Shown here: piece after piece, positions 11,120 through 45,052 of the stretch | Position numbering within the stretch: position 1 is the first letter of the stretch | Layout of the letters: each line of letters opens with the position of its first letter | Assembly: GCA_051362555.1 (NCBI GenBank) | Contig: CM120645.1 | Span: 1,736,001-1,800,000, forward strand | Length of the DNA stretch: 64,000 nt | Direction of reading: 5' to 3' | Source of the DNA: Lingula anatina | Taxonomy: Eukaryota > Animalia > Brachiopoda | Made by a program: the position numbers and the translations under genes | Notes under the pieces: model-generated | What the model saw: only the letters and a program-made list of their open reading frames with translations | Databases searched by the model: none | Told to the model about the DNA's origin: nothing

Positions 11120-12868
11120 TTATTTCATGGGCACAGCTGAAACCCGGAAAACTAGCTGTATTAAAAATGAAATAAAATACTTTGATGCCTTTCTCAGCGT
11201 TTATATGCAAATATTAAATAAGTACTATGTACTATTTGTCGTTAAGCGTTTATTGGTCCAACTTGACAATGATCGCTATCTGAAACAGAAGAGTAAATTA
11301 CATAAGTCTGCATAAATAATAATCCTATAAATACACGTTTCTATAGTAGACCTATAACCTGTTTAGAGGAAGGGTATGCATAAAAAAAGAGTGTAGCACA
11401 CTGAATATTTTGGTATTTTTACAAATTAATAATATCTGTTGAAGTCTACCTGGACACCTGAAGTAAGTAACTCTAACACAAGTGAACAATAACTAACCAC
11501 TGCACTACCTGTGCAGCTCTTTATTATAGTACCAAATATGCAAATGACCCAATGCTACAAGTCCAATAAATATGATTGGCTAGTTTACCACTGCATAACC
11601 ACTGCAATGCAACACTTTACCATAATTGTTTGAGATGTTATCACATAGCCATTATGTAAGTTCTACAAGAGGAAACCATTGCCTTCTTGCATGTTCAATG
11701 CCCAAATTCTATTGCGACAGTGATTTATATTGATGTAGGCGTGTGCATCGGTCCGTCCAAAGTCGCTATTTATTTCTCCATACTTGATTCACTAATTATT
11801 ATCTTTAATTGTATACATTCCTGATATTACTTAACTTTATTTTTATAATCCGATTTAACAAGGAGTTATTTTATTCTTTGTGAGCATACCTTTTAACCAC
11901 GGGATTCTTGTTCCATTTTATTTTGTTACATAAGCCAATCATGTTATCAAAATGCATTGTGGTGTACTTGGTAAAAAAATGACAAAGTTCAATGATTTTT
12001 TTTAAAATATGAACGAAAAATGCTTTTTAAAGGCCTGTATTACTATCTCTTAGTTTTGGCAGAGATATCAAATATCAGTTTGGAAATGGTTATAGGTATT
12101 AGGGAATTCTTGCTCGCTTTTCTCTTTGAATAATGCAAAAATTATAAACAAGGAAATTCTTATTTTTCATGTTGATATTTTATTCCTGGTGGCATATTGA
12201 GTTTTTTTAATAGCCTATCACAGTATATGAAGAGATACATGTATTATCTTCATTTCAACTTTCTGTTCTGTCATTTGGCTTTGTCAATAAGCTAACAACA
12301 TTTTGGAAGAAAATTGTAGTCTTTAGCAACTCAGCTAGGCTCGGGCAGATCATCCCTCCAGTTCAGATTTTGGTATTGCTCATATCTTTAACAAGAGATA
12401 GAGACCTTGAAGGTCCCTCCGATACCAAACCCGTACACACCTATTGCATACGTCCCATTGGATAAGTCTCCTTGAGGGATCTGGAGCAGAGAGGTAAAGC
12501 CAGAACAGCCATCAAAGTCGTCATTGGAGTACGCACTGTTACCTTGGCGGATATTGCATGTCTGACTTCCACCGGATTCAATATTAGACATAGCATCACA
12601 GGAAAAAAGAGCCAGCTTCGTGTCGTAGTCGGCGGCATTGCATGTGGATATAATGATGTTGTTACTTCCTGAGTAACAGATGCTGTATCGCAACGGTGCC
12701 AGATTATTTGCGACATATTGATAGCTGTCGTTGAAGGTATAGGTTGTACCATCACACATGACTTGTTGAACGTCCGCTGTAAGTGTTAATATAATTTAAG
12801 TGTAAATATAATTTCGACTTTCACATTGGCCACACTATTTTACAATAATAATGATTATATATACCCGG

Positions 12869-12946
<78 letters not shown>
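10394..12946. repeat. (TA)n microsatellites
   Basis: Tracts at ~10394-10460, 11064-11118 and 12872-12946. Others at ~32940-33004, 33883-33935 and 41527-41590; (GA)n at ~9938-9971 and 32430-32467. Confidence 0.9.
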
Positions 12947-12950
<4 letters not shown>

Positions 12951-15900
12951 TTTCCGAAATTGGATCCCGTAAAAGTTTTTAAAAGTAAAATAAAAATAAA
13001 AAGATTATTAGTAATAATGATAATTAAAAATAAAAATAATTAAGTTTTATACAAGTACAACATTGGTCAAAAAGGTTGTCCCACCCCCACTTCCATATAC
13101 TTTTATTTACAAATGATCAGCTCACAGGTGTAAATTGTTATAACTAGTGCTTTTTATTCTAGATACCATGTCTAACATGAATAATGGTTAAAAAAATACA
13201 AAATAGTGGTCTGTTTAGGAAGAATGGGAAAATATCCCACAAAACAGAATTATTACCCTTGTTGAAGGCTTGTCGCGCCATCTACAGGAGATAATTACAG
13301 TACGCGGTAGACGCACACGCTATTAGGCAGGTGACCTCTAACGAGCACATCCTAATGCTAATTATGTGTAAATTTGGTGACATTTGGTGGCGTCTTTTCA
13401 ATTAAATAGGCACTTCTTTACATCCGTAGAAATCACAGTGGAACATTGGATCTGAGGGGGTACTTGTTATAAATTTGACTTAATGGTATAAAATGTGCAT
13501 TTTACAACTCAATGAACTGTCTGTTATTTTAAAACAGTATGACATAGATTATGCCTGCATAACAGGGAGCTGGTGCAACTCATCCATCTCTGACAGCATA
13601 TAATACAGTGAGAAAAGACAGAGAGCAGAAGAGGGGCGGTGGATTGGTTTGTTACATCTAAGAATCAATACCTTTCAAGATATGGAATGAGCTAGTCTGC
13701 AACCTGGAATCACTATGGATAACTTTGAGACCAAACAGACTACCTCGGCGTGAATTCTCACACATCAGCCTTGGCGCAATTTACCACCCTCTAGGTGCAG
13801 ATAACAAGAGTATGACCCAACATATCATATCTTCCACTGACTTTATCCTCAGGGTCCACCCGTATTCAGCAGTCTTCCTTATTGGTGACTTTAACACACT
13901 CCCTGACAACCAATTTAAGAGAGCCTTCAACTTGAGACAGATTGTCAGGAAGGGTACAAGAAGAGAATCAATACTGGACAAAATCTTCACTAACATTGAC
14001 CAATATTACAAGGTGCCCGAAATACTACCGCCAATAGGACATCCGACCACAATGCAGTACTCTCCCTTCCTGCAAATCATAACCGCAATCCATGTGGTAA
14101 AGAGGAAAAGATCCGCTGTCGCTCCATGGGAAAAAATGAAAAAAATTCTTTTCGCTCATGAGCTCATGAAAGTGAATTGGACACCACTGTATAAAATGGA
14201 CACTTGTGCAAACCAGTACCAGTTCTTCGAAGAGACAATTAACAATCTCCTTGACACCTATCTTCCAATGAGAGTCATCAGCAGACACACAACGGACAAA
14301 CCCTGGGTAACATCTGATTTCAAGGACCTCATCAAACGGCGTCAGAGAGCCCTCAGCGAAGGAAATACTAGCCTTTCACATGCACTCAGGAACAAAATCA
14401 AAAGGACAAATAAACAACTTAAGTCAAAATACTATAAAAATAAAATAGAATCATTGAAACAGTCCAACTCTTCCCTATGGTGGAAAAAATCAAAAGAATT
14501 ATCTGGGATGCAAAACAATGTCACTTTACTCCAACTGCTGGCAGATAGCACATCTTCAGGCAATCTTCCAGTTCTGGCAAACAAAATCAATACCTTTTTT
14601 CATAGTGTCAGCCAAGACCTGTCACCTTTACAACCTGACGGAAATGCCCAGCAGAGTTGTATAGTACCTGACAAATTTGTTATCTGCACAGCGGATGTAG
14701 AAAAATTACTATCCAAAGTAAAGCTGTCTTAAGCTAAAGGCCCAGACCAAATTCCAAATTGGGTTCTCAGAGACTTTGCAGACTACTTGTCAAAACCACT
14801 TTGTGCAATTTTCAATAGCTCAGTAAGGGATGGTTGCGTACCAAAAATTTGGAAATCTGCAGAGATAATACCCATTCCAAAAGTGAATCAGCCAAAGGTA
14901 ATAGAGTCAGATCTTAGACCTATATCACAAACACCAGTTCTAAGTAAAATTTTGGAGTCTTTTGTAACAAAGTGGGTTACAGATGGTCTGCAAATTGATA
15001 GAGCACAGTTTGGTGGCATTCAGAATAGTTCAACTACTCACGCCTTAGTTGAATTGACTCATAGATTACTAGAAGGACTTGAACCATCCCCCAAAACAAA
15101 GTCTTATGCTCAGGTGTTATTTTTAGATTTTGCTAAAGACTTCGACAGGATTGATCACCATATCTTAATGAAAAAATTAGAAATTCAAGGGATAGACCAA
15201 TTGGCTGACTGGGTCAAGCAAAACAAGATGAAACTTAATGTAAAGAAGACTAAGTCAATGGACATAAATTTTACCAAGAACTGTAATCTTACAATGCCAA
15301 CATTGGAAATAGATGGTGAACGTGTAGAAAAGGTCAAAAAGTTTAAGATACTTGGTGTTATTTTAACCCCAGACCTCAAGTGGGCTGAACACATCCGAAT
15401 CATGTATGCTAAGGCATGTTTAAAGCTCTTTTATCTCAGACAGCTAAAGAGGGCAAAACTGGACATACAAGATTTATTAACTATTTACCAGTCTGTAATA
15501 AGATCAGTTTTAGAATATGCATGTCCAGTATGGGGACCAGGTCTGACTGCTGAGCAATCTGAATGTCTAGAGTCAGTTCAAGAGAGAGCTTTAAGGATTA
15601 TTTGCCCTGGTCTCAGTTATGATGATGCCTTAAAAGTTTGTAACATTGACACCCTAGACAAACGTAGACATTTGCTGTATCAGAGGTTTTATACAAAATT
15701 AAAAAATTGTGAAAAGTTAGGACATTTATTGACTGAAAGAAACACCCGCCCTTTACGAAACACCAAATTCTTACAACCAAAAGTGAACGTTTTAAAAATT
15801 CCTTTATTAATTATTGCCTTTTTAACTTGTAGTAATTTATGGATGCCGTTTTAATTTGTAGTATTTTAAGAATAATTTATTGTTTTATAATTTAAAGTTT

Positions 15901-18900
15901 ATTGTCAATTTTCTTTTAAACATTCTTTGTACAACTTCAACCTTAGGGTTGCAATTTTATCAAATAAATTATTATTATTATTATTATTATTATTAAACAT
16001 ACAGAAAAGATTAATATAAATGAAGTACAGCTTCAGTTGGAAAACCACATATATATAATTTCATCTTGAGTTGGAAAACCAGCTCAATTCCATTATTTTT
16101 CAAGAAGAAAGGCATTTTTTTTTTTTTTTTTTTTTTTTTGCAAAAATGTTGGACTTTGAACTCCCACTGGCATGAAGCCTCATGGTAGTTACATATTCTT
16201 AGTGTCCACGTTAGATAAATAAAAAATTGGTGTTGACTTTGTTGTTAAGCATAATGTATTATTGCATCAAAACTGTCAAAAAAAAAAATTCTTTGCATCA
16301 TTGTGTGTTCATCTAACAGCTTTGCTGCCTTGTTGATTCTCTTTCTACACACTGTTATGTAGGTTAAAAAAGATGCCATACTTACGACACCGTCTTGTTA
16401 GTTCAGCTGAAAAAATTGATAAGAAGAAATATATTAGAAAAGCACATTAATGATATATATATACAAATAATCTATATATTGTACAACTTCTGCCACCACT
16501 TTTGCCGATAAATTTGAGAAATGAATCCTTAATGTCAAAACATACACCAGTTTCCCAACATATCAACAATTTTTTGTTCACTGCGTTTTTTAATGATCCT
16601 ATAACGTGGATTGCAAGGTAATATCCATTACCACAATTATTTTCAATTTTAAAAACCACATCTTACATGCAGTTAGCTTGTAGTGCCTTTTTACACACTG
16701 GTATGTAGGTTATAGAAGATGCACTGTGCCTGAGATAATTTATAAAACTCCCTGGCTATCTATCATCTAAGACCTTAACTAATTTAAAAATCAGTAAAAC
16801 GAGGCAGCAAGCAGCCTTAAGTAAAACACAAAAAATAAACACATATGAAAGTTGGTCTACACTGAAGAAAAATTAGTATTAAATATTTTTGTGTTAAATG
16901 TAATATCATACTTACGACATTGTGCGATAGATTCAGCTGAAAACGTGAAAAGATGTATTTTGCAAAAGTACACGAAAATATTCATACAATCATGTGCATA
17001 TTCTGCCAACGTGAACAAAGATGTTAATATATATTATATATTGGTTTAGATATGAATTAATTGATATTATTCTCTCAATAGTAAAATATAGAACTCTATA
17101 GACTATCTCTATACAGCAACTAAAATTTCCCGTTTCTGCTTTTTTGTCTAGCCCATAAAACCAACTATTCTTACCAATTATTTTCTATTTCTGGCTATAG
17201 AAAGATAGCAGTAGGGAGGGCACGTTTGCAAATCAAATGTAATGTTTGATGTAATACTTACGACATGTCGGCATTTCTAGGGGAAAAAAGAAAGGCAATA
17301 TTAAACACAATGGGGCATCACTTGAATAATATAATCATTCAAACAATTATCATTTAAACATTGATTTTTCAGATACTTTAAAGTTTAGGTGATTCGATCA
17401 ATGAAGCCATATGATAAAAGACAAAATAGTGGAATTTGTTTAATGCTGAATTATCAAAAGAAAAAGAGGTGTTCGCGGAATTCAACTTTAACGGTTACAT
17501 ATGATTGGGTTTATTTCCTTATCCGCTATTAGCTACCGTGGAAATGAACATTGTCATTTTATGAGATAACGTAGTCACATCCAATATACATTGAGGTAAA
17601 TATGCTAGTTCCAGTTGGTGACGTAAAAGTAGTTATTTGGGAGAGAAAACTTTTATGTCCATTTCAAACAATATGTACTACAAACTGGTGTCAGGAAATT
17701 GGCGTAGGTTTAATCTCTACATAAAAAACAGCAACTCCCTTGATAATGTTGAAATCAGAACAACACAACAAAGAGTTCATAGCGTTTCCTTCAAATGGTT
17801 ACACATAATTTGAAAAGAAATGTATAAAAGACTAAGTTTCCTTCGAACTTAAAAACCAATAACTTGACTTCCACTTCCCCCTTTTCCTAATGCCAGTGAA
17901 TACTGCATCCTAACAGTTTAAATACGGTACTATCGAAATCAAACACCCTATTCCTGGATACAATATTGTTATAAGTTCAAGAGTTTACAAATAAGATCAC
18001 CTGCACAAAATATATACAAATTTAAATAAGAATTGAAAGATTTTAAAATATCAAAACTGAGCCCCCTGCTAGGGTATTAAAATGACAACCGTTAAATCAT
18101 AAAAAATTCCTTACTCTAAGTTGAATTGGTAAAAACAAACATAACATCAAATGGGTTTTTAAGCACAGTTTTTATGTCGAGTTTTTATTTATTCAAGGAC
18201 CAATATTTGAGAAGAAAAGTATAAAGTACAAACTTTTCATCGAACATCAGAACCAATATGTCGACTTCAAATCCCCCCTTTCCTAATGGTGGTAATGGTA
18301 CTGCACCCATGCAATAAAGTCTAACTGCCAGTTCTCACCTGGAACGCAATTTTGTGGATCTGGAACAGAAGAGTTGAACATGTATCCCTCTTCACACACA
18401 CAGACCAGAGGTTCTGGACAAGGTAAACTTTGACCTTCTTCGTTGGTAGTATTCTGGCAGTTTGACACAGTACTGTTATCCACTATCTCACAGCATCTGG
18501 TATTATTACCACACACAACTGGGGGCCTCACTTCAATTTATGAAACAAAAGACAAAACTTGTCAATACAGGGAAATGAATTTATATAGATTTCATTTTGA
18601 AACATTATGTCATGATCATTGCATTTCTGTGTGTGTCCTTCTAAGACGAGGTACAGTGTGCCATATAAAACATTGCCAAATTCCACCCACTTTGACAAGG
18701 ACGATGGTCATCCGACATTTTCCAACCAGTGTAAATTACAAAGCTACATGTCACCCTTACGTAAACCATGATTAAAATTTTTATTTCGATATTATGTTAT
18801 AAGATCTAAAGATTAATAATGAAATCATCTGCACAATATATACATGTTTACAAGTTTAAATAGGGTAGTATTGAACCAACAATCACAAATCAACTGAGAG

Positions 18901-18925
18901 TGCCTTACTCTTCCTTGAAAAGGTT

Positions 18926-18966
<41 letters not shown>

Positions 18967-21900
18967 ACTTTAACCAACAATGAGAGTTCTCACCTGGAAC
19001 GCAATTTTGTGGATCTGGATCAGAAGAGTTGAACATGAATCCCTCTTCACACGCACAGACCCGAGGTTCTGGACAAGGTAAACTTTGACCTTCTTCATTG
19101 GTAGTATTCTGACAGTTTGACACTGTACTGTTATCCACTACCTCACAGCATCTGGTATTATTACCACACACAACTGAGGGCCTCACTTCAATTTATGAAA
19201 CAGAAGACAAAACTTATCAACACAGGGAAATTATTTTATATAGATTCCAATTCAGAACATGATGCCAGGATTATTGTGCTTCGGTGTGCATCCTTCTACA
19301 GTGTGTAACATGAAAGACAGTGCGCCATACAAAACATTGCCAAATTCCAGTCAACGTGACAATTGACTGTGGGTATACGATACACGTTTTTCAACCACTG
19401 TAACTTTAAATGCTGCATAAGATCTTACGTTTAATAATGAAGTCATATGCACAATGTACACCAATACTTTGGGGGAGATAAATGACTGTGGAATGATATG
19501 CTCCTGCTATCAGTTTATTAACAAGTTTACAAGTTTAAATATGGTTGTATCGAAATCACAAACACAAAGCATAAAGAGTGCCTTACTCTTCCTTGAAGAG
19601 GTAAAAAAGCAGAACTTAAACCAGCAAAGACAGTGGGCCAAAAAAACATGGCCAAATTCCATCCAATGTGACGTATGACGATGCGGGTACACGATACCTA
19701 CTTTTAAGTTATATGTCACGTGTACGCAAACCATGATTAAAAATATTATTTCTACATATACTGTTATGAGATCTAAAGTTTAACGATGAAGTCATCTGCA
19801 CAATATATACATGTTTAATTACAAATTTAAATATGGGAGTATCAAAATCACAAACACAAATCATATAGAGTGCCTTACTCTTCCTTGAAAAGGTAAAAAG
19901 CAAAACTTTAACCAATAATAACAGAACTCACCTGGAACGCAATTTTGTGGATCTGGATCAAAAGTGTTGAACATGAATCCCTCATCACACACACATACCA
20001 GAGGTTCTGGACAAGGTAAACTTTGACCTTCTTCATTGGTAGTATTCTGACAGTTTGACACTGTACTGTTATCCACTACCTCACAGCATCTGGTATTATT
20101 ACCACACACAACTGAGGGCCTCACTTCAATTTATGAAACAGAAGACAAAACTTATCAACACAGGGAAATTATTTTATATAGATTCCAATTCAGAACATGA
20201 TGCCAGGATTATTGTGCTTCGGTGTGCATCCTTCTACAGTGTGTAACATGAAAGACAGTGCGCCATACAAAACATTGCCAAATTCCAGTCAACGTGACAA
20301 TTGACTGTGGGTATACGATACACGTTTTTCAACCACTGTAACTTTAAATGCTGCATAAGATCTTACGTTTAATAATGAAGTCATATGCACAATGTACACC
20401 AATACTTTGGGGGAGATAAATGACTGTGGAATGATATGCTCCTGCTATCAGTTTATTAACAAGTTTACAAGTTTAAATATGGTTGTATCGAAATCACAAA
20501 CACAAAGCATAAAGAGTGCCTTACTCTTCCTTGAAGAGGTAAAAAAGCAGAACTTAAACCAGCAAAGACAGTGGGCCAAAAAAACATGGCCAAATTCCAT
20601 CCAATGTGACGTATGACGATGCGGGTACACGATACCTACTTTTAAGTTATATGTCACGTGTACGCAAACCATGATTAAAAATATTATTTCTACATATACT
20701 GTTATGAGATCTAAAGTTTAACGATGAAGTCATCTGCACAATATATACATGTTTAATTACAAATTTAAATATGGGAGTATCAAAATCACAAACACAAATC
20801 ATATAGAGTGCCTTACTCTTCCTTGAAAAGGTAAAAAGCAAAACTTTAACCAATAATAACAGAACTCACCTGGAACGCAATTTTGTGGATCTGGATCAGA
20901 AGTGTTGAACATGAATCCCTCATCACACACACATACCAGAGGTTCTGGACAAGGTAAACTTTGACCTTCTTCATTGGTAGTATTCTGACAGTTTGACACT
21001 GTACTGTTATCCACTACCTCACAGCATCTGGTATTATTACCACACACAACTGGGGGCCTCACTTCAATTTATGAAACAGAAGACAAAACTTGTCAACACA
21101 AGGAAATGAATTTATATAGATTTCATTTTGGAACATTATGTCTTGATCATTGCATTTCTGTGTGTATCCTTTTACAACATTATTTTAGAACTCATTAATT
21201 TTAGGACATTATGGCAAATTCATGCTTATATGTTTATACTTCTAACATGGGATACAGTGTGCCATAAACAGCATTGCCAAATTCCACCCACTGCGATGTG
21301 TGATGACTGGTATACAACACTTGTTTTCCAAGCAGTGTAAATTACAATACTACATGTCACGTATATAAAACCATGATTAAAATATTATTTTTCCATATAT
21401 TGTTATAAGATCTAAAGTTTAATAGTGAAGTCATATGCACAATATACACGTGTACAAGTTTAAGTACGATAGTATTAAAATCATGAACACAAATCACTGA
21501 GAGTGCTTTACTCTTCCTTGAAAAGGAAAAAAGCAGAACTTTAACCAGCAATGAGAGTTCTCACCTGGAACGCAATTTTGTGGATCTGGATCAGAAGAGT
21601 TGAACATGTATCCCTCATCACACACACAGACCAGAGGTTCTGGACAAGGTAAACTTTGACCTTCTTCGTTGGTAGTATTCTGGCAGTTTGACACTGTACT
21701 GTTATCCACTATCTCACAGCATCTGGTATTATTACCACACACAACTGGGGGCCTCACTTCAATTTAAGAAACAGAAGTGAAGACTTGTCAACACAAGGAA
21801 ATGAATTTATATAGATTTCATTTTGGAACATTATGTCTTGACCATTGCATTTCTGTGTGTATTCTTCTAACATGGGGTACAGTGTGTCATATAAAACACT

Positions 21901-24900
21901 GCCAAATTATACCCACTTTGACAAGGGCGATGGTCATCTGACATTTTCCAACTAGTGTAAATTACAAAGCTACATGTCACGCGTACTCAAACAATGATTA
22001 AAATTTTACTTCTACACATTGTTATAAGATCTTTAGATTAATAATGAAGTCATCTGCACAATACATACATGTTGACAACTTTAAATATGGTAGTATTGAA
22101 ATCACAAACACAAAGCATAAAGAGTGTCTCACTCTTATTGAAAAGGTAAAAAAGCAGAACTTTAACCAGCAATGAAAGTTCTCACCTGGCACGCAATTTT
22201 GTGGATCTGAATCAGAAGAGTTGAACATGTATCCCTCTTCACACACACAGACCAGAGGTTCTGGACAAGGTAAACTTTGACCTTCTTCATTGGTAGTATT
22301 CTGGCAGTTTGACACTGTACTGTTATCCACTACCTCACAGCATCTGGTATTATTGCCACACATAACTGGGGGCCTCACTTCAATTTATGAAACAAAAGAC
22401 AAAGCTCATGAATAATTTTAGAGCATTATTTTAGAACTCATTAATTTTAGGACACTGTGGCAAATTCATGCTTATACGCTCGTATGTTTATACTTCTAAC
22501 ATGGGATACAGTGTGCCATAAACAGCATGCCAAATTCCACGCACTGCAATGTGTGACGACTGGTATACAACACCTGTTTTCCAAGCAGTGTAAATGACAA
22601 AGCTACATGTCACACACACACACATATATATATATATATGTCAAAGGCCCGGATCAAATCTAGTCCCATGCATAAAGAGCCCAGACTCCATGTTTATTAC
22701 ACCCTGGCTGGGCCCATTATTTTTGGTGTCTTTGCATTGTTAACAGCATAATGGGCAAGTTAAATGACCAAGTTAATTGACCAAATTAATTGGCCAAGCT
22801 GCCAGTTTGTTTGTATGGCATGTGCAGTTGTCTTAGATCAAGGCACAAATGAAGCCCACCTTTAATTTAACATTTCTTTAGTGTTTAGCTTTTTATGCAT
22901 TCCAACCACTGCGGCAAGTGACACCCATCTTTCAAACAGTGTAAATTACAATGCTACATGTCACTTATTTACCAGCCATGATTAAAAATATTATTTCTCC
23001 AAATTTTGCTAGAAGATTTAATATTGAAGTCATCTTCACAAAATATACATTTTATAAGTTTAAATATGGTAGTATAGATATAACAAACACAAATCGTATA
23101 GAGTGCCTTACTCTTCCTTGAAAAGGTAAAAACATGCAGTCCTTTAACCAACAATGAGAGTTCTCACCTGGAACGCAATTTTGTGGATTAGGATCAGAAG
23201 AGTTGAACAGGTATCCCTCTTCACACACACAGGCCAGAGGTTCTGGACAAGGTAAACTTTGACCTTCTTCATTGGTAGTATTCTGACAATTTGACACTGT
23301 ATTATTATCCACTACCTCACAGCATCTGGTATTATTACCACACACAACTGGGGGCTTCACTTCAATTTATGAAACAGAAGTCAAGACACGTGAACACAGG
23401 GAAATTAATTTAGAACATTATTTTAGAACTCATAAAATTTAGATCACTGTGCCAAATTTATTGTGTTCGTGGGTTTATACTTTTAACATGAGATACAGTG
23501 TACCATACACAACATTGCCTAATTTCACCCACTGTGAAGTGTGACGATGGGTATGCGATATCCATTTTGAAACCAGTGAAAATTACTAAGCTACATACCA
23601 CAAACGTAATCCCATATACGATTACAAACATTATTCCTAGATACACTGTTATAAGATCAAGAGTTTAAAAACAAGATCACATGCACAAAATACATACAAA
23701 TTTCAACAAAAATTGAAAGATTTTAAAAGAACAACACTGAGCCCCTGACGAGGGTATTAAAACCACAAGGGTAAAATCATAAAGAATTCCTTACTCTAAG
23801 TTGAATTGGTAAAAACAAACATGACATCAAATGGGTTTTTAAGCACACTTTTTATGTCGAATTATAATTTATTCAAGGAAGGACCAATATTTGAAAAGAA
23901 AAGAAATGCATAGTAACTTTTTATCAAAACCAATATCTCGACTTCAACCTCCCCCCCCCCCCCCCATCCTTTCCTAATGGTGGTAGTGGTACCGCACCCA
24001 TGCAATAAAATCTATAACTGCCTGTTCTCACCTGGAACGCAATTTTGTGGATCTGGAACAGAAGAGTTGAACATGTATCCCTTTTCACACACACAGACCC
24101 GAGGTTCTAGGCAAGGTAAACTTTGACCTTCTTCATTGGTAGTATTCTGACAGTTCGACACTGTACTGTTATCCACTACCTCACAGCATCTGGTATTATT
24201 ACCACACACAACTGGGGGCCTCACTTCTATTTATGAAACAGAAGACAAAACTTGTCAACACAGGGAAATGAATTTATATAGATTTCATTTTGAAACATTA
24301 TGTCATGATCATTGCATTTCTGTGTGTGTGCTTCTAAGACGAGGTACAGTGTGACATATAAAACATTGCCAAAGTCCACCCACTTTGACAAGGACGATGG
24401 TCATCCAACATTTTTCCAACCAGTGTAAATTACAAAGCTACATGCCACCCTTACGTAAACCATGATTAAAATTTTTATTTCGACATTCTGTTATAAGATC
24501 TAAAGATTAATAATGAAATCATCTGCACAACATATACATGTTTACAAGTTTAAATAGGGTAGTATCGAACCAACAAAAACAAATCATTGAGAGTGCCTTA
24601 CTCTTCCTTGAAAAGGTTAAAAAAAAAAAAAAACACAGGACTTTAACCAACAATGGGAGTTCTCACCTGGAACGCAATTTTGTGGATCTGGATCAGAAGA
24701 GTTGAACATGTATCCCTCTTCACACACACAGACCAGAGGTTCTGGACAAGGTAAACTTTGACCTTCTTCATTGGTAGTATTCTGGCAGTTTGACACTGTA
24801 CTGTTATCCACTACTTCACAGCATCTGGTATTATTACCACACACAACTGGGGGCCTCACTTCAATTTATGAAACAAAAGTCAAAACTCATGAATAATTTT

Positions 24901-28253: not shown

Positions 28254-28288
<35 letters not shown>

Positions 28289-28733: not shown

Positions 28734-28766
<33 letters not shown>

Positions 28767-32426: not shown

Positions 32427-32469
<43 letters not shown>

Positions 32470-32935
32470 AAATGTTATAATACGGCAAGTGAAATACATT
32501 TTCATTTTCAGATAGGTCTTCTAAAGCTCACCAGCCACGCAAAACAATAATCATTCTTGGAGACGAGGGTTGTGGAAAATCTTGTCTAGTCAGCGTTTTC
32601 ACAAAGGACGATTTCGCCATAAACCGTCTTCCTGTCCCTTCCACGAGTAATATTTCATACATAGAAATTGATGGCAAAATGGTGATTATTTTTTCATATG
32701 GACAAACGGCAGTTTAAATGTTGCGCTGCATATCATTTTAACCCATGTTCTCATTATCAACAATATCAAAAAATCTTACATATATATATTTAGTTTGTTC
32801 CACACTTGAATAATAAAGAAAAACGTCTGTTTTAAAATTGATGCAGGACCCGCATGATAAAAGCGAGAAAATTTCAAAATTTTACATTCAATCTCTGTGT
32901 TAATCCCCCCCCCTCACACGAAACCCTGGAACCAT

Positions 32936-33007
<72 letters not shown>

Positions 33008-33880: not shown

Positions 33881-33953
<73 letters not shown>

Positions 33954-34789: not shown

Positions 34790-37700
34790 TTAACAAGAGA
34801 TAGATATCCTAAAGAAGCCATAGGAAGTGTACGCCCCGCACACACCTATTGCATACGTCCCAATGGGTAGGTCTCCTTGCGGGATCTGGAGCAGAGAGGT
34901 AAAGCCGCCACAAACGGGACTGTCGTCATTCCAGTGCATAAAGTGATATCCGCGGATGCCGCATATCTGAAGTCCACCGCGTTCAATAAATAACGTCGCA
35001 TCACAGGCAAAAAGAACCACCATCGTGTCGAAGGTGGCGGCATTGCATGTGGATATACTGATGTTGTTACACCCCGAGTAACTGATGCTGTATTGTAACG
35101 GTACCAGGTCGAAATCAACAAATCGAAAGCGGCTGCTGAAGGAGTAGGTTGTACCGTCACACCTGACTTGTCGAACGTCCGCTGTAAGTGTAAATATAAT
35201 TTTTAAACTAGCATTTGACTTTCACATTGGCCACAATATTTTGCAATAATAATGATAATTTAAGCAGCTACCACATATATATAATTTCCGAAACTGAACT
35301 CTAAAAGTTCTTAAAAGTAAAATAACAATACAAATAATTATAAATAATAATAATAATTAAAGATAAAAATAATTAAGTTTAATACTAGTATGTTAAAAGA
35401 TTAATCGTATAATATACAAAAAATACAGTAAGTAAAAAGTAGGGAAAGCATAAACTAAGCTGCGTACGTAACTTTAAGACCCCAAACGGCATGATTTTTA
35501 CATCGTTTTTATGTACAGACACACCGCGCCTGGTGTACAGGGACACATTGTGCACGGTGGAAAATTTCTAGACAAAACTGGATAACTTCCTTGCTAGTAT
35601 ACTATATATATAGACCAACCCACACTGGTGACCACCATAAGGTGGAAAAACTTAACAAGTAAAGAGAAAGTAAGTAAAACCCCTTTTACACTAGACGGCG
35701 TCCTTTCTGCGTCCCGTACGTACATGTAGTACGGCCCCGTTTGAGAGTAAAAAAAGTAATACTTTACGTGCCAACAACTTGCAGATCAATGAGCATTCAT
35801 TCTGCAACCACGGCGATGCCTGTTTCATGGTCGCACAAAGGACGCAGAAAGGACGCCGTCTAGTGTAAAGGGGGTGTATGTAAGAAAGTAAGCATTAAAT
35901 GATATTGTATCAAAGTTGAAGAAAACCATGTTTTGGGCACCGATGCTATAATGACCAACAAAGGAAGACTTTGTTACTTATGATTATCAAACATACAGAA
36001 AAGATTAATAGAACTGAAGTACAGCTTGAGTTGGAAAACCATATATTTATAATTTCATTATTTTTCTGGAAGAAATGCTTTTTTTTTTTGGCAAAAATGT
36101 TGGACTTAGAACTCCCACTGGCATGACGCCTTATGGTAGTTATATATTCTTAGTATCCACGTTAGATAAATTAAAAATTGTTGGTGACTATGCTTTGTTG
36201 TCAAGCATAATGTATTATTGCATCAAAACTGTCAAAATTTTTTTTTGCATTATTGTGTGTTCATCTGACAGTTTTGCTGCCTTATTGACTTCCCTTTCTA
36301 CACACTGGTATGTAGGTAAAAAAAAGATGCCATACTTACGACAATATCTTGGAATTATAGCTGAAAAAATTGATAAGAAGAAATATAGTAGATAAGTACA
36401 TTAATGATATACTGTATATACACACACTGGACAATAGGAGTGTCACCCCTACTGAACCAATACTTTGGGGGAGAGAAATGACTGTGGAATGATATGCTCC
36501 TGGTATCATTTTATTAACATCAAATTTCACAAAAAGACCAACAATACAATTCCATGGTACAGCGGTTTTATACTCATTAGTCGCATTATAAGTAGATCAG
36601 GCATTATAAACTTTGATTACTCTGTTTCAGGGGGTGAAGGGGGTGACACTTCTCTTGTCCAGTGTGTGTACAAGTAATCAGTATATTGTACAACTTCTGC
36701 CACCACTTCTGCCGATAAATTTATGTGAAGATATTAATTCTTAATGTCAAAACACACACCAGTTTCCCAACATACCAACAATTTTTTGTTCACTGCGTTT
36801 TTTAATTATCCTATAACGTGAATCGTAAGGTAATATTCATTACCACAATTATTTTCAATTTTAAAAAACATATCTTACATATCTTAAATATAGAAGTCTA
36901 TAGACTATTTCTATACAGCAAATTAAATTTCCCGCTCCACTGCTTTTTTGTCGAACTCATTAGATGAACAATGATAAAAACCAACTAGTTTTACCAATTA
37001 TTTTCTATTTCTGGCTATAGAAAGATAGAAGTTGAGAGGGCATGTTTGCAAATCAAATGTAATGTTTGATGTAATACTTACGACATGTCGGTATATCTAG
37101 GGGAAAAAAAAGGCAATATTAAACACAATGGAGTATCACTTGAATATATAATCATTCAAACAATTATCATTTAAACACTGACATTTTCGTCATTTCAGAT
37201 CCGGCGACAAATGTATGTTATCCTTTAAAATAGAGTTTAGTTGATTCCATCAATGACAAAATAGTGGAATTTAATGCTGAATTACCAAAAGAACTCAACG
37301 TTAACACAGATGCTCATAGATAACTATGTGAGGGAGTGAAGCGGTTAATTACGATTGGGTTTATTTACTCCCTCGATTATGTAGAAGTCGGAACAAAACA
37401 AAAAGGAGTCCATAAGGTTTCCTTCAAATGGTAACACAATTTGAAAAGAAAAGTATAAAGACTAAGTTTCCTTCTAACTTTAGAACTAATATCTCAACCT
37501 CAAACCCACTCCCCCTTTCGTAATGGTACTAATACACAATGCAGTACTGCACCAATGCAATGAAGCCTATCACTGCCAGTTCTCACCTAGAATGCAATTT
37601 TGTGGATCTGGATCAGAAGGGTTGAACACGTATCCCTCTTTACACACACAGACCCGAGGTTCTGGACAAGGTAAACTTTGACCTTCTTCATTGATAGTAT

Positions 37701-40700
37701 TCTGGCAGTTCGACAATATTTTATCCACTACCTCACAACATCTGGTATTACTACCACACACAACTGGTGGCCTCACCAAAATTTATGAAACAGAAGACAA
37801 AACTTATCAACACAGGGAAATTAATTTATATAGATTTCAATTCAGAACATGATGCCAGGATTATTGTGCTTCTGTGCGCATCCTTCTACAGTGTGTAACA
37901 TGAAAGACAGTGCGCCATACAAAACATTGCCAACGTGACAAATGACTATGGGTATACAATACACGTTTTCAACCATTGTAACTTAAAATGCTGCATAAGA
38001 TCTTAAGTTTAATAATGAAGTCATATGCACAATATACACCAATACTTTGGGGGAGATAAATGACTGTGGAATGATATGCTCCTGGTATCAGTTTATTAAC
38101 AAGTTTACAAGTTTAAATATGGTTGTATCAAAATCACAAACACAAAGCATAAAGAGTGCCTTACTCTTTCGTGAAGAGGTAAAAAAGCAGAACTTAAACC
38201 AGCAAAGACAGTAGGCCAAAACATGGCCAAATTCCATCCAATGTGACGTATGACGATGCGGGTACACGATACCCACTTTTAAGTTATATGTCACGTGTAC
38301 GCAAACCATGATTAAAAATATTATTTCTACATATACTGTTATGAGATCTAAAGTTTAACGATAAAGTCATCTGCACAATATATACATGTTAAATTACAAA
38401 TTTAAATATGGTAGTATCGAAATCACAAACATAAAGCATAAAGAGTGCCTTACTCTTCCTTGAAAAGGAAAAAAGCAGAACGTTAACCAGCAATGAAAGT
38501 CCTCACCTGGCACGCAATTTTGTGGATCTGGATCAGAAGGGTTGAACATGTATCCCTCTTCACACACACAGACCAGAGGTTCTGGACAAGGTAAACTTTG
38601 ACCTTCTTCATTGTTAGTATTCTGACAGTTTGACACTGTATTGTTATCCATTATCTCACAGCATCTGGTATTATTACCACACACAACTGGGGGCCTCACT
38701 TCAATTTATGAAACAGAAGTCAAGACTTGTCAACATAAGGAAATGAATTTATATAGATTTAATTTTGGAACATAATGTCTTGATCACTGCATTTCTGTGT
38801 GTATCCTTTTAGAACATTATTTTAGAACTCATTAATTTTAGGACATTGTGGCAAATTCATGCTTATATGTTTATACTTCTAACATGGGATACAGTGTGCC
38901 ATAAAGAGTAATGCCAAATTCCACCCACTGCGATGTGTGATGACTGGTATACAACACTTGTTTTCCAAGCAGTGTAAATTACAATACTACATGTCGTGCA
39001 TATATATGCAATATTATTTTTCAATATATTGATATAAGATCTAAAGTTTTATAGTGAAATCATATGTACAATATACACATGTGTACAAGTTTAAGTACGA
39101 TAGTATTAAAATCATGAACACAAATCATTGAGAGTTCCATACTTTTCTTGAAAGGTAAAAAAGCAAAACTTTAACCAGCAATGAAATTTCTCACCTGGAA
39201 CGCAATTTTGTGGATCTGGATCAGAAGAGTTGAACATGTATCCCTCATCACACACACAGACCAGAGGTTCTGGACAAGGTAAACTTTGACCTTCTTCATT
39301 GGTAGTATTCTGGCAGTTTGACACTGTACTGTTATCCACTATCTCACAGCATCTGGTATTATTACCACACACAACTGGGGGCCTCACTTCAAGTTATGAA
39401 ACAGAAGTCAAGACTTGTCAACACAAGGAAATGAATTTATATAATTTAATTTTGGAACATTATGTCTTGACCATTGCATTTCTGTGTGTATCCTTCTAAC
39501 ATGAGGTACAGTGTGTCATATAAAACACTGCCAAATTATACCCACTTTGACAAGGGCGATGGTCATCTGACATCATTTTAAAACCAGTGTCATTTACAAA
39601 GCTACATGTCATGCGTACTCAAACAATGATAAAAATTTTTCTTCTACACATTGTTATAAGATCTTTAGATTAATAATAAAGTCATCTGCACAATACATAC
39701 ATGTTGACAACTTTAAATATGGTAGTATTGAAATCACAAACACAAAGCATAAAAAGTGTCTCACTCTTATTGAAAAGGTAAAAAAAAGCAAAACTTTAAC
39801 CAGCAAAGTGAGTTCTCACCTGGAACGCAATTTTGTGGATCTGGATCAGAAGAGTTGAACATGTATCCCTCATCACACACACAGACCAGAGGTTCTGGAC
39901 AAGGTAAACTTTGACCTTCTTCATTGGTAGTATTCTGACAGTTTGACACTGTACTGTTATCCACTACATCACAACATCTGGTATTATTACCACACACAAC
40001 TGGGGGCCTCACTTCAATTTATGAAAAAGAAGTCAAAACTCATGAATAATTTTAGAACATCATTTTAGAACTCATTAATTTTAGGACATTGTGGCAAATT
40101 CATGCTCTTATGTTCATACTTCTAACATGGGATACAGTGTGCCATAAAGAGTAATGCCAAATTCCACCCACTGCGATGTGTGATGACTGGTATACAACAC
40201 TTGTTTTCCAACCAGTGTAAATTACAATGCTACATGTCACACACACACACACACACACACATATATGCCATGTTTAAAAACATTATTTCTCCATATATTG
40301 ATAAAAGATCTAAAGTTAAATAGTAAAGTCATATGTACAATATACACATGTGTACAAGTTTAAGTACGATAGTATTAAAATCATGAACACAAATCATTGA
40401 GAGTGCCTTACTCTTCCTTGGAAAGGAAAAAAAAGCAGAACTTTAACCAGCAATGGAACTTCTCACCTGGAACGCAATTTTGTGGATCTGGATCAGAAGA
40501 GTTGGACATGTATCCCTCTTCACACACACAGACCCGAGGTTCTGGACAAGGTAAACTTTGACCTTCTTCATTGGTAGTATTCTGACAGTTTGAAACTGTA
40601 CTGTTATCCACTATCTCACAGCATCTGGTATTATTACCACACACAACTGGGGGCCTCACTTTAATTTATGAAACAGAAGTCAAACCTTGTCAACACAAGG

Positions 40701-41513
40701 AAATGAATTTATATAGATTTAATTTTGGAACATTATGTCTTGATCATTGCATTTCTGTGTGTATCCTTCTAACATGAGGTACAGTGTGTCATATAAAACA
40801 CTGCCAAATTATACCCACTTTGACAAGGGCGATGGTCATCTGACATTTTCCAACTAGTGTAAATTACAAAGCTACATGTCACGCGTACTCAAACAATGAT
40901 AAAAATTTTTCTTCTACACATTGTTATAAGATCTTTAGATTAATAATGAAGTCATCTGCACAATACATACATGTTGACAACTTTAAATATGGTAGTATTG
41001 AAATCACAAACACAAAGCATAAAGAGTGTCTCACTCTTATTGAAAAGGTAAAAAAGCAGAACTTTAACCAGCAATGAAAGTTCTCACCTGGAACGCAATT
41101 TTGTGGATCTGGATCAGAAGAGTTGAACATGTATCCCTCTTCACACACACAGACCAGAGGTTCTTGACAAGGTAAACTTTGACCTTCTGCATTGGTAGTA
41201 TTCTGGCAGTTTGACACTGTATTGTTATCCACTACCTCACAGCATCTGGTATTATTACCACACACAACTGGGGGCCTCACTTCAATTTATGAAACAAAAG
41301 ACAAAGCTCATGAATAATTTTAGAACATTATTTTTGAACTCATTAATTTTAGGACACTGTGGCAAATTCATGCTTATACGCTCGTATGTTTATACTTCTA
41401 ACATGGGATACAGTGTGCCATAAACAGCATTGCCAAATTCCACGCACTGCAATGTGTGACGACTGGTATACAACACCTGTTTTCCAAGCAGTGTAAATGA
41501 CAAAGCTACATGT

Positions 41514-41593
<80 letters not shown>

Positions 41594-44500
41594 AAAGGCC
41601 CGGATCAAATCTAGTCCCATGCATAAAGAGCCCAGACTCCATGTTTATTACACCCTGGCTGGGCCCATTATTTTTGGTGTCTTTGCATTGTTAACTGCAT
41701 AATGGGCAAGTTAAATGACCAAGTTAATTGACCAAATTAATTGGCCAAGCTGCCAGTTTGTTTGTATGGCATGTGCAGTTGTCTTAGATCAAGGCACAAA
41801 TGAAGCCCACCTTTAATTTAACATTTCTTTAGTGTTTAGCTTTTTATGCATTCCAACCACTGCGGCAAGTGACAACTGGTATATACGACACCCATCTTTC
41901 AAACAGTGTAAATTACAATGCTACATGTCACTTATTTACCAGCCATGATTAAAAATATTATTTCTCCAAATTTTGCTAGAAGATATAAAGTTTAATATTG
42001 AAGTCATCTTCACAAAATATACATTTTATAAGTTTAAATATGGTGGTATAGATATAACAAACACAAATCGTATAGAGTGCCTTACTCTTCCTTGAAAAGG
42101 TAAAAACATGCAGTCCTTTAACCAACAATGAGAGTTCTCACCTGGAACGCAATTTTGTGGATCTGGATCAGAAGAGTTGAACATGTATCCCTCATCACAC
42201 ACACAGACCAGAGGTTCTGGACAAGGTAAACTTTGACCTTCTTCATTGGTAGTATTCTGACAATTTGACACTGTATTGTTATCCACTACCTCACAGCATC
42301 TGGTATTATTACCACACACAACTGGGGGCTTCACTTCAATTTATGAAACAGAAGTCAAGACACGTGAACACAGGGAAATTAATTTAGAACATTATTTTAG
42401 AACTCATAAAATTTAGATCACTGTGCCAAATTTATTGTGTTCGTGGGTTTATACTTTTAACATGAGATACAGTGTACCATACACAACATTGCCTAATTTC
42501 ACCCACTGTGAAGTGTGACGATGGGTATGCGATATCCATTTTGAAACCAGTGAAAATTACTAAGCTACATACCACAAACGTAATCCCATATACGATTACA
42601 AACATTATTCCTAGATACACTGTTATAAGATCAAGAGTTTAAAAACAAGATCACATGCACAAAATACATACAAATTTCAACAAGAATTGAAAGATTTTAA
42701 AATAACAACACTGAGCCCCTGACGAGGGTATTAAAATCACAACGGTAAAATCATAAAGAATTCCTTACTCTAAGTTGAATTGGCAAAAACAAACATGACA
42801 TCAAATGGGTTTTTAAGCACACTTTTTATGTCGAATTATAATTTATTCAAGGAAGGACCAATATTTGAAAAGAAAAGAAATGCATAGTAACTTTTCATCA
42901 AAACCAATATCTCGACTTCAACCTCCCCCCCCCCCTTTCCTAATGGTGGTAGTGGTACCGCACCCATGCAATAAAATCTATAACTGCCAGTTCTCACCTG
43001 GAACGCAATTTTGTGGATCTGGAACAGAAGAGTTGAACATGTATCCCTTTTCACACACACAGACCCGAGGTTCTAGGCAAGGTAAACTTTGACCTTCTTC
43101 ATTGGTAGTATTCTGACAGTTCGACACTGTAGTGTTATCCACTACCTCACAGCATCTGGTATTATTACCACACACAACTGGGGGCCTCACTTCTATTTAT
43201 GAAACAGAAGACAAAACTTGTCAACACAGGGAAATGAATTTATATAGATTTCATTTTGAAACATTATGTCATGATCATTGCATTTCTGTGTGTGTGCTTC
43301 TAAGACGAGGTACAGTGTGCCATATAAAACATTGCCAAAGTCCACCCACTTTGACAAGGACGATGGTCATCCAACATTTTTCCAACCAGTGTAAATTACA
43401 AAGCTACACGCCACCCTTACGTAAACCATGATTAAAATTTTTATTTCGACATTCTGTTATAAGATCTAAAGATTAATAATGAAATCATCTGTACAACATA
43501 TACGTGTTTACAAGTTTAAATAGGGTAGTATCGAACCAACAAACACAAATCATTGAGAGTGCCTTACTCTTCCTTGAAAAGGTTAAAAAAAAAACACAGG
43601 ACTTTAACCAACAATGGGAGTTCTCACCTGGAACGCAATTTTGTGGATCTGGATCAGAAGAGTTGAACATGTATCCCTCTTCACACACACAGACCAGAGG
43701 TTCTGGACAAGGTAAACTTTGACCTTCTTCATTGGTAGTATTCTGGCAGTTTGACACTGTACTGTTATCCACTACTTCACAGCATCTGGTATTATTACCA
43801 CACACAACTGGGGGCCTCACTTCAATTTATGAAACAAAAGTCAAAACTCATGAATAATTTTATAGCATTATTTTAGAACCCATTATATTTTAGAACATTG
43901 TGCCAAATTGATGTTTTTGTGTTAATGTTTCTCACATGAGATACAGTGTACCGGCCGTACACAGCAATGCCAAATTCCACCCACTGCGACGTGTGACGAC
44001 TGGTATAAAACACCTGTTTTCCAACCAGTCAAGTACTACATGCCACGTGTACACAAACCATATATAATTACAAATATTATTCTTTTATCTTATTAGTTAA
44101 AAAGTTTTAAAAATTAGTCACCTGCATGAAGTAAAAGAGTTAAAAAGAACACAGACCCCCTGACGATAGCATTTTGAAATCGTTTAAACAAAATCTTAAA
44201 AGTGTTCTTTGCTCTTCCAGGATTCAAGCACATAACTTTTTATCGAACTTCAGAACCAGTACTGTGTATCTCGGCTTCAACCCCTTCTGTTTCCCCTAGT
44301 TACTTATACTAATTACCGTACCGCTGCAATAAAGTCTTTAAGTACCATTTCTCACCTGGAACGCAACTTTTGGAACCTGGATCAGAGGTGTTCAACCTGT
44401 ATCCCTCATTACACACACAGGACCATTTATGCGGGCAAGGTAAACTTTTTTCAATGATATTATTCTTGCAGTAGATCAAGTGTCTTTTAACTCTACAGCA

Positions 44501-45052
44501 CTTGGAGTTCTCCCCACACACGGGTCTTGGCGAAGGTTTTTTACACCCCTTGCCTTGACTACCGCACTCTTGGCAGCGTATACGTGAGAAGGCGAGGTGC
44601 GATGGCTTAGCGTGCCCGCTGCCGTGTTTGCGTGGATGCCCAGGACATGCTCGGGTTATGCAGAAACGACTGTGCCTTGTACGCCCTAAATGTAAATTCA
44701 AGATTTTACAAAGAGTAAAACAGCTTAGACCTATATCATTTTTTGTCTAATTTGTCGAAAAACCTGCATTAAAAAAACGTTTTTGAATTATTACAAGATA
44801 TGATAAAAAGCATGTCATAATGTCCGACCTCGCTTGTAAGTAACGTAAAGCATAATGCTGATGAAACAGGGCCCGATCAAATAAAGTTTGACCAGTCATG
44901 GTAATTTGAAAAAAAGAAACTAGCATCTATCTTTATAATACTTGATGGTGAATTACAAAAGCCGTAATTTAGCACTTACGAATTCTGGCGAGCGCATACA
45001 GTGCAACCAAAACCAAAATCAGACAAAGGAGCAATGTCCTGTACATCTTCAT
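34790..45052 (-). CDS. Secreted Cys-rich repeat protein with PPC-like C-terminal domain, copy 3 (complete model)
   Basis: Signal exon 45052-44980. Basic exon 44685-44356. Nine repeat exons: 43819-43628, 43189-42998, 42333-42142, 41279-41088, 40658-40467, 40011-39820, 39386-39195, 38698-38507, 37763-37587. Micro-exons 37096-37082 and 36360-36340. Terminal exon 35181-34790. Frame is open throughout. Confidence 0.8.
35679..35875. mobile_element. MITE with ~35-bp TIRs
   Basis: CCCCTTTTACACTAGACGGCGTCCTTTCTGCGTCC at the left end and its near-perfect reverse complement at the right end. Confidence 0.8.
36421..36668. mobile_element. Tc1/mariner-type MITE (TA target duplication)
   Basis: TIR CACACACTGGACAA.AG.AGTGTCACCCC with TA on both sides. 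The TA-rich site is empty in unit 2 (~16455). Confidence 0.8.

What the first reader, a model, noticed from the sequence alone, without database searches (positions are those of the whole stretch)
12388..45052. Unrecognised secreted protein family: basic head, TIL-like repeat stalk, Cys hinge, PPC-like tail
Seen: two complete in-frame models and one partial model, with all introns in phase 1. Architecture is signal peptide; His/Arg/Lys-rich Cys domain; nine acidic 8-Cys repeats (CGNN..CC..C..C..CVC..GY......CVP) with about four N-glycosylation sequons each; micro-exon hinge; ~129-aa terminal domain. Known: CGxN...CxCxxGY...CVP is the TIL (trypsin inhibitor-like) signature, though TIL normally has 10 Cys. 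Inference: an extended glycosylated stalk presenting a variable binding domain, a candidate immune, mucosal, adhesive or gamete-recognition protein. I do not recognise this architecture.
Basis: partly seen in the sequence, partly recalled or inferred. Interest (0 to 1): 0.82.

Follow-up and report, generated by a model that had tools for sequence, protein, structure and literature searches.

The report
Brachiopod secreted rod with bacterial-type tip
Three neighbouring genes of the lamp shell Lingula, with spliced RNA matching this gene family, encode a predicted secreted rod of cysteine-rich repeats that ends in a fast-changing domain whose closest relatives found are bacterial, so it is likely a two-ended binding protein whose tip was possibly borrowed from bacteria.

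Summary
Two complete genes (847 and 858 aa) and one partial gene lie in tandem on the minus strand, and all their introns are phase 1. Gene B's last exon is 100% identical to a Lingula anatina RefSeq protein. Stranded RNA reads in 2 of 4 runs join signal, head, repeat, micro-exon and terminal exons.

The 'PPC-like tail' is right. It folds as a PPC/collagen-binding-type beta-sandwich and is homologous to repeats of bacterial secreted proteins (hhalign 98.7%). No other animal was identified among its hits. The 'TIL' label is not supported: the 8-Cys repeat looks more like an altered EGF module.

Seven RefSeq loci form a Lingula family with 0, 1 or many repeats, so the terminal domain is the core and the long stalk is this locus's addition. 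The stalk repeats are homogenised. The two tips are only 60% identical but keep their scaffold.

Best reading: a secreted two-ended tether or agglutinin with a variable binding tip (0.45). Ligand and tissue are unknown. Transfer from bacteria is plausible (about 0.6) but not shown. I found no description in print.

The parts
34790..45052 (-). Gene A, complete: 14 exons, 847 aa
44980..45052 (-). Gene A exon 1, predicted signal peptide
44356..44685 (-). Gene A head exon: Arg/His/Lys-rich segment with 5 Cys plus a basic copy of the 8-Cys repeat
37587..43819 (-). Gene A nine acidic repeat exons (43628-43819, 42998-43189, 42142-42333, 41088-41279, 40467-40658, 39820-40011, 39195-39386, 38507-38698, 37587-37763); the last is diverged and has lost the usual acceptor
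36340..37096 (-). Gene A micro-exons 37082-37096 (15 nt) and 36340-36360 (21 nt), one Cys each
34790..35181 (-). Gene A terminal exon, PPC/GBD-type domain, long branch in the tree
12388..27061 (-). Gene B, complete: 15 exons, 858 aa; terminal exon identical to that of XP_023933164.1
26989..27061 (-). Gene B exon 1, predicted signal peptide
25307..25636 (-). Gene B basic head exon
18339..24858 (-). Gene B nine 192-nt acidic repeat exons (24667-24858, 24032-24223, 23168-23359, 22186-22377, 21565-21756, 20870-21061, 19932-20123, 18994-19185, 18339-18530)
16386..17276 (-). Gene B micro-exons 17262-17276, 16916-16936, 16386-16406; the last carries the first Cys of the bacterial-type domain
   Evidence: (table 5c)
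12388..12776 (-). Gene B terminal exon, PPC/GBD-type beta-sandwich
1..3936 (-). Gene C, partial: exon 1 3864-3936, head 1949-2278, repeats 1225-1416, 590-781 and one cut by the window start
29484..33579 (+). Two divergent Rho-family genes duplicated with the unit (between A and B): 29484-30213 and 32538-33579
6820..11040 (+). Second copies of the same two Rho-family genes (between B and C); the second has an in-frame stop
13662..15854 (+). Broken LINE-type reverse-transcriptase element in the last intron of gene B

Best explanation
The spliced genes encode a predicted secreted, disulfide-rich and likely heavily N-glycosylated rod that likely works as a two-ended extracellular tether or agglutinin, with a cationic head predicted to grip polyanions (mucus, glycosaminoglycan, microbial surface) and a PPC/galactose-binding-fold tip that likely recognises variable foreign or surface ligands. 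Shown here: exon structure, splicing, family architecture, homology of the tip to bacterial domains, and conserved scaffold with fast-changing remainder. Predicted: signal peptide, fold, glycosylation. Inferred: the rod shape (about 25-30 nm if each module is EGF-sized, my estimate), the binding of both ends, and a role in recognition at a mucous or body surface. History (inferred): a bacterial-type secreted domain became a small secreted Lingula protein (0 repeats), gained one phase-1 EGF-like exon (1 repeat), and at this locus the exon and then the whole gene were amplified by unequal crossing-over.
For: Splicing and strand. The tip is the part shared by all 7 Lingula loci, whose repeat counts are 0, 0, 1, 1, 1, 1 and 2 or 7. 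Tip fold: pLDDT 91.9. Top structural matches are PliG (Z 10.1, rmsd 2.6, 100 aligned), a collagenase PPC domain (9.9, 2.8, 98), CorA (9.7) and the ColG collagen-binding domain (9.6), tied within 1 Z. PPC domains are non-catalytic binders of proteins such as collagen, casein and phycocyanin (abstracts of PMC6168687 and PMC3327674). Tips A and B are 60% identical, dN/dS 0.95 (CI 0.57-1.69). They keep 33 of 35 family-invariant residues against 19 expected under neutral change (0 of 20000 simulations reach it); dN/dS is 0.10 at those sites and 1.3 elsewhere. Head exons differ at 13 of 330 nt and tip exons at 92 of 389. Six family accessions and one locus id are absent from the 2026 shell proteome supplement, which uses the same accession series.
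Against: No ligand, tissue or localisation data. dN/dS of the tip is not significantly above 1, and the 1.3 comes from removing invariant sites, which biases it upward. Most of the change is on gene A's branch (0.62 against 0.17, with odd composition), so relaxed selection also fits. Shared fold gives no function, and Z near 10 is only moderately above background. Three genes here and seven RefSeq loci make a small family for an immune repertoire. Two of four RNA runs show no exon reads; this may be tissue or stage specificity, or divergence beyond the 95% cut-off.
Confidence: 0.45

Rival explanations
1. Structural cross-linker of the animal's own matrix (cuticle, pedicle, periostracum or glue): the tip would bind collagen like bacterial collagenase PPC/CBD domains and the basic head would bind glycosaminoglycan or phosphate.
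For: Collagenase PPC and CBD structures are 4 of the top 8 fold matches. Lingula shell layers are rich in glycosaminoglycan and collagen, and EGF shuffling is frequent in this lineage (sections read in PMC13425148 and PMC4595640).
Against: Not found in the 2026 shell proteome supplement. No row of the part of the 2015 shell-protein tables that I read matches the family in length, pI and composition (gene ids differ, so the match is indirect). A fixed self ligand does not explain 40% tip divergence.
Confidence: 0.25
2. Egg-coat or gamete-recognition protein, with a homogenised repeat array and a rapidly changing terminal binding domain.
For: The pattern recalls abalone VERL, whose repeats 3-22 are homogenised by concerted evolution (passages of PMC2704960). 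Here most repeats differ by 0-14 of 189 nt, and A1 and B1 are identical. Expression is restricted to 2 of 4 runs.
Against: No ZP or other egg-coat domain was found by Pfam. Short paralogues without a stalk exist. The tissue of the expressing runs is not known.
Confidence: 0.18
3. Enzyme inhibitor: TIL-type protease-inhibitor repeats, or a PliG-like lysozyme-inhibitor tip.
For: The CxCxxGY...CVP motif is shared with TIL (recalled). PliG is the top fold match (Z 10.1).
Against: 8 Cys, not 10; TIL hit in 1 of 9 sequences at E 0.066. Four sequons per repeat would hinder protease docking (inference). PliG is tied with PPC and only 15% identical, while sequence homology points to PPC/GBD repeats.
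Confidence: 0.07
4. Passenger duplications under relaxed selection; gene A is decaying and the array may be partly an assembly artefact.
For: Gene A repeat 9 lost its acceptor and its sequons; long gene A branch; one co-duplicated Rho copy has a stop.
Against: The tip scaffold is kept far above neutral expectation. The units differ by 8-24% and by different insertions, too much for alleles in my judgement. A-type and non-A-type heads occur in the same RNA runs.
Confidence: 0.05

Closest known systems
Bacterial PPC (PF04151) / GBD_T9SS_assoc (PF23759) repeats of Bacteroidota and Phycisphaerae secreted proteins
   Same: STC-x-A-x-[YF]DT, NDD-x3-C-x-GFTS and Y-x3-V-x-G motifs, terminal Cys, and C-x7-C start (7 of 7 Lingula proteins; 37 of 37 bacterial matches to the pattern). 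hhalign probability 98.7, E 3.9e-16. Of the 36 non-Lingula proteins with the domain, 18 hit PF23759 and 13 hit the T9SS tail model.
   Different: The Lingula domain has an insertion of about 16 residues, lacks one bacterial Cys, is single-copy and C-terminal, has no peptidase or T9SS tail, is split by an intron after its first Cys, and passes no Pfam cut-off (best PPC E 0.24).
Collagenase PPC/collagen-binding domains, PliG, CorA (solved structures)
   Same: Same beta-sandwich fold, Z 9.6-10.1, rmsd 2.6-3.0.
   Different: 9-20% identity; no significant sequence hit in the PDB; ligand not transferable.
EGF-like modules (cEGF, JAG1-like EGF2, EGF_3)
   Same: CGxN..C start and CxCxxG[YF]...C end; one module per phase-1/phase-1 exon; weak Pfam hits in up to 6 of 9 sequences.
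   Different: No first EGF Cys; three extra Cys in a 25-30 residue insert; below Pfam cut-offs per domain.
TIL domain (PF01826)
   Same: CxCxxGY...CVP end (recalled motif).
   Different: 8 Cys with spacing 5-0-10-12-5-1-15 rather than 10 Cys; 1 of 9 weak hit.
Abalone VERL
   Same: Homogenised tandem repeats in a secreted protein.
   Different: VERL repeats are ZP-N domains and bind at the N-terminal repeats (recalled); no homology found.
MSP130 (proposed bacteria-to-animal transfer, present in Lingula)
   Same: Secreted animal protein with bacterial relatives and gained introns (passages of PMC11878542).
   Different: MSP130 is spread over several phyla; this domain was found only in Lingula among animals.

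Membership tests
TIL domain (PF01826) | Ten cysteines (recalled) | tested here: not met
   8 Cys per repeat, spacing 5-0-10-12-5-1-15
TIL domain (PF01826) | Pfam score above cut-off | tested here: not met
   1 of 9 repeat sequences, E 0.066; none in the 666-aa protein
TIL domain (PF01826) | TIL fold and disulfide pattern; protease inhibition | not tested
   A model containing one repeat was made (repeat pLDDT mostly 66-78) but could not be compared with solved folds
EGF-like domain | C-terminal CxCxxG[YF]...C half | tested here: met
   All window repeats and 2 of the 3 paralogue repeats aligned; two RefSeq models lack this loop
EGF-like domain | Canonical six-Cys pattern with a first Cys before CGxN (recalled) | tested here: not met
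   No such Cys in the acidic repeats; three extra Cys inside
EGF-like domain | Pfam EGF-clan score | tested here: inconclusive
   Weak hits in 6, 5, 2 and 1 of 9 sequences, best E 1.4e-4; summed cEGF score over repeats 66.5 bits
EGF-like domain | Module encoded by a phase-1/phase-1 exon (recalled property) | tested here: met
PPC / GBD_T9SS_assoc domain | Sequence homology to bacterial members | tested here: met
   phmmer E down to 1e-12; hhalign 98.7% over 115 columns; Atlas features 0.93-0.96
PPC / GBD_T9SS_assoc domain | Beta-sandwich PPC/CBD fold | tested here: met
   Predicted model pLDDT 91.9; Z 9.9 to a collagenase PPC domain; the model used bacterial rows in its alignment
PPC / GBD_T9SS_assoc domain | Pfam gathering score | tested here: not met
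PPC / GBD_T9SS_assoc domain | Binding of protein or carbohydrate | not testable with these tools
   needs assay
Gene horizontally acquired from bacteria | Closest non-self relatives are bacterial | tested here: met
   36 non-Lingula hits carry the domain. Sources were looked up for 16 of these clusters: four named bacteria, one dinoflagellate, the rest without an organism name; none named as animal. Three Bacteroidota genomes.
Gene horizontally acquired from bacteria | Integrated in the animal genome, not contamination | tested here: met
   Spliced introns, poly-A RNA reads, RhoA neighbours, several scaffolds
Gene horizontally acquired from bacteria | Supported nesting within a donor clade | tested here: inconclusive
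   Lingula clade 99-100 SH-aLRT on a long stem (1.06); sister group support 68; quick tree, 125 columns, no outgroup
Gene horizontally acquired from bacteria | Absent from other animals | tested here: inconclusive
   None identified, but the full-library search used one sequence, and Pfam lists a nematode IRG-7 domain that co-occurs with PPC in one Atlas cluster
Lingula shell matrix proteins | Peptides in shell proteomes | tested here: inconclusive
   Not in the 2026 supplement; no matching row in the part of the 2015 tables read; proteomes are shallow and heavy glycosylation hides peptides

The most novel reading that the evidence does not exclude
Lingula domesticated a bacterial surface-protein domain by horizontal transfer, put an intron inside it, fused it by exon shuffling to a home-made 8-cysteine EGF variant, and now uses the family as a variable recognition system whose reach (0 to 10 modules) and tip specificity evolve separately.
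Probability: 0.3. Interest if true: 0.75.

Novelty: new variant of a known kind. Interest (0 to 1): 0.52.

Why it matters
If the transfer is real, this is a clean, stepwise record of how an animal builds a new extracellular protein from a bacterial module: bare domain, one added exon, then an amplified stalk, with all stages still in one genome. It would add a PPC/GBD-type binder to the recognition or adhesion toolkit of brachiopods, which are poorly studied. The 8-Cys repeat would be a new EGF variant. The small paralogues (164-231 aa) and the two tips give direct material for binding assays, which would also inform on the uncharacterised bacterial GBD_T9SS repeats. If the domain proves to be an old, patchily kept eukaryotic one, it is still an undescribed lineage-specific family, but of modest interest.

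Tried and rejected
No whole genome was held, so other loci could be seen only as RefSeq proteins and no codon test over the family was possible.

Pfam, NCBIfam and PDB sequence searches give no family for either tip (one weak NCBIfam FDP_fam hit, E 0.014). A search with the first 200 residues found nothing among 266 candidates of 366-1166 aa, which is weak evidence.

Of the 103 phmmer hits, 4 are Lingula, 36 carry the domain, and 63 were dropped for lacking the STC..DT motif. Six of those 63 were looked at: four are repeat proteins hitting through a short CSGF word (two confirmed as BspA-LRR by Pfam), one is a PKD-repeat protein, and for one only the first 420 residues were seen.

Metagenome and viral contig scans found no relative. 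The proximal CAG acceptor for the repeat exons was considered and rejected on RNA joints. No RNA holder was listed by the index; the raw-read runs were added by species label. Reads were laid only on gene B, so gene A's splicing is not directly shown.

The repeat model could not be compared with solved folds and the Atlas look-up for the repeat did not complete, so EGF versus TIL rests on sequence. The careful tree did not finish; the quick tree was used. A dinoflagellate protein with the domain does not group with Lingula. Five look-ups in earlier findings gave nothing. No complex was predicted, because no specific partner is claimed.
Full report
OBSERVATION. A six-frame scan finds the repeat motif 23 times, all on the minus strand. 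Exon building gives gene A (45052-34790, 847 aa), gene B (27061-12388, 858 aa) and partial gene C (3936 to the window start). There are no internal stops, and every intron is GT-AG and phase 1. A TATA-like CTATAAAA lies 103-115 nt before each start codon. The terminal exon of gene B is 100% identical to part of XP_023933164.1 of the brachiopod Lingula anatina, named 'uncharacterized'. A second database sequence of 666 aa has the whole architecture with six acidic repeats. Whether six against nine is copy-number variation or assembly collapse cannot be told.

EXPRESSION. Four RNA runs were laid on gene B. X1 and X3 (one study) give stranded minus-strand reads with joints exon 1-head (60, 27 reads), head-repeat, repeat-repeat, repeat through three micro-exons, and last micro-exon to terminal exon (6, 11 reads). 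X4 and X7 give no exon joints, only reads on intronic repeats. The joints fix the repeat exon at 192 nt. Rough depth arithmetic gives about 12.5 repeats per head and about twice as much head as B-type tip, consistent with several expressed paralogues. One listed head variant is specific to gene A and is present in 14 of 22 and 27 of 31 reads.

ANATOMY. After the predicted signal peptide comes an Arg/His/Lys-rich segment with five Cys, then a basic copy of the repeat (head exon net +17 to +19). Nine acidic repeats follow (net -7 for A1, mostly four sequons). Hinge plus tip hold ten Cys in both genes. There is no hydrophobic stretch suggesting a membrane anchor.

THE REPEAT. It has eight Cys with spacing 5-0-10-12-5-1-15. 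Pfam on nine repeat sequences gives JAG1-like EGF2 in 6, cEGF in 5, EGF_DL_JAG in 2, EGF_3 in 1 and TIL in 1 (E 0.066), all weak. One paralogue ends the repeat with CVCNEGFSGNPC, an EGF-type ending. I read it as an EGF variant that lacks the first Cys and carries a three-Cys insert. This is inference: the model of a one-repeat paralogue shows a hairpin and short strands at moderate confidence, but no fold comparison could be run.

THE TIP. Pfam, NCBIfam and PDB sequence searches name nothing. The Atlas features point to bacterial PPC and GBD_T9SS clusters at 0.93-0.96. phmmer over 1.84 billion representatives gives 103 hits: 4 Lingula proteins (E 1e-21 or better), 36 proteins with the same motif set (E from 1e-12), and 63 that I dropped as lacking the motif. 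Of the 36, 18 hit PF23759 and 13 the T9SS sorting-tail model. Profile comparison of Lingula against nine of these gives probability 98.7, E 3.9e-16. The alignment starts at the Cys in the last micro-exon, and its seven-residue spacing to the next Cys is the same in 7 of 7 Lingula proteins and 37 of 37 bacterial pattern matches. So an intron lies inside the bacterial-type domain. The predicted structure (pLDDT 91.9) matches PliG, a collagenase PPC domain, CorA and the ColG collagen-binding domain at Z 9.6-10.1. Animal domains of related fold (SID-1, calpain, GOLD) score 7.0-8.5.

THE FAMILY. Seven RefSeq loci on six scaffolds carry the tip, with 0, 0, 1, 1, 1, 1 and 2 (or 7 in the longer model) repeats. 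The basic head segment was seen only at this locus. In a quick tree of 87 domains, the eight Lingula tips form one clade (SH-aLRT 99-100) on a long stem without a supported sister. The dinoflagellate copies fall elsewhere. Eighteen near-duplicate cluster members and one further id were excluded beforehand (125 rows to 87). Contamination is excluded by introns, RNA and RhoA neighbours. Horizontal origin is my preferred reading (about 0.6), but long-branch placement, a single-sequence library search and thin sampling of related phyla leave an old, patchily retained domain open.

EVOLUTION AT THE LOCUS. The duplicated unit (about 18-23 kb) holds the gene and two divergent Rho genes. A 4-kb block of the stalks of A and B is 95% identical and repeats A1 and B1 are identical, while the tip exons differ at 92 of 389 nt and the Rho regions at 8-10%. 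Repeat dN/dS over all pairs is 0.56; tip dN/dS is 0.95 (CI 0.57-1.69). The tips keep 33 of 35 residues invariant in six other paralogues, against 19 under neutral change. So the scaffold is under purifying selection and the rest changes at about or above the neutral rate. Positive selection is not shown.

MECHANISM. Bacterial PPC domains are non-catalytic binding modules (abstracts of PMC6168687 and PMC3327674). A lone secreted PPC-type domain is thus best read as a binder. Adding an acidic, glycosylated spacer and a cationic end would turn it into a bridge. Variable tips on a constant stalk favour recognition of variable ligands (0.45) over cross-linking of own matrix (0.25), gamete recognition (0.18), enzyme inhibition (0.07) or decay (0.05). 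All functional steps are inferred.

LITERATURE. Six locus ids occur in no held paper, 'brachiopod' with 'pre-peptidase' in none, and three broader searches listed nothing on this family by title or abstract start. For PMC13425148 I read the abstract and one results section and searched the supplement. For PMC4595640 I read passages, one section and one part of 24 of the supplement. For PMC2704960 and PMC11878542 I saw passages; for PMC5308781 (IRG-7) the search listing only. Subscription papers and bioRxiv supplements were not visible and could hold a mention. TIL and EGF cysteine patterns and VERL domain identity are recalled.

VERDICT. Real, expressed and apparently undescribed; a new variant of the stalk-and-tip class of secreted binding proteins, with a probable bacterial origin of the tip and unknown ligand. 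Interest 0.52.

Noticed in passing
window 48692-57551 (+): A canonical RhoA has one 5' coding exon (48692-48847) but three near-complete 3' exons (50864-51289, 54188-54610, 57129-57551), about 91% alike, ending CKFL, CLIL and CLLL. This suggests mutually exclusive last exons giving three RhoA isoforms with different tails. Not checked with RNA.
   Followed up: partly
window 32538-33579 and 10042-11040 (+): Atypical Rho-like gene in each tandem unit: P-loop GDEGCGKS, DTAGQ replaced by EPAGL, no clear CAAX end in the first copy. By analogy (recalled) it would be GTPase-deficient. The second copy has an in-frame stop and a shorter first exon match.
   Followed up: partly
window 29484-30213 and 6820-7544 (+): Second divergent Rho gene (about 70-77% to RhoA), ending HRRC without a CAAX box; one copy has GDSACGKS in the P-loop, the other ACG where the first has ATG.
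   Followed up: partly
window 13662-15854 (+): Broken LINE-type reverse-transcriptase element inside the last intron of gene B, absent from gene A.
   Followed up: no
window about 25860-26890: Interspersed repeat in intron 1 of gene B that draws many RNA reads from elsewhere in all four runs, strongly stranded in X4.
   Followed up: no
window 2541-3275 (-): Two ORF remnants without Pfam match (first tested) in intron 1 of gene C, probably the end of a retroelement.
   Followed up: no
P0018 (Breviolum minutum): A dinoflagellate protein carries three copies of the same bacterial-type domain and falls among the T9SS-type sequences, apart from Lingula: a possible separate transfer or contamination.
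   Followed up: partly
P0115, P0116: Two Lingula RefSeq paralogues have a repeat that lacks the last EGF-like loop: a real deletion or a gene-model error.
   Followed up: no
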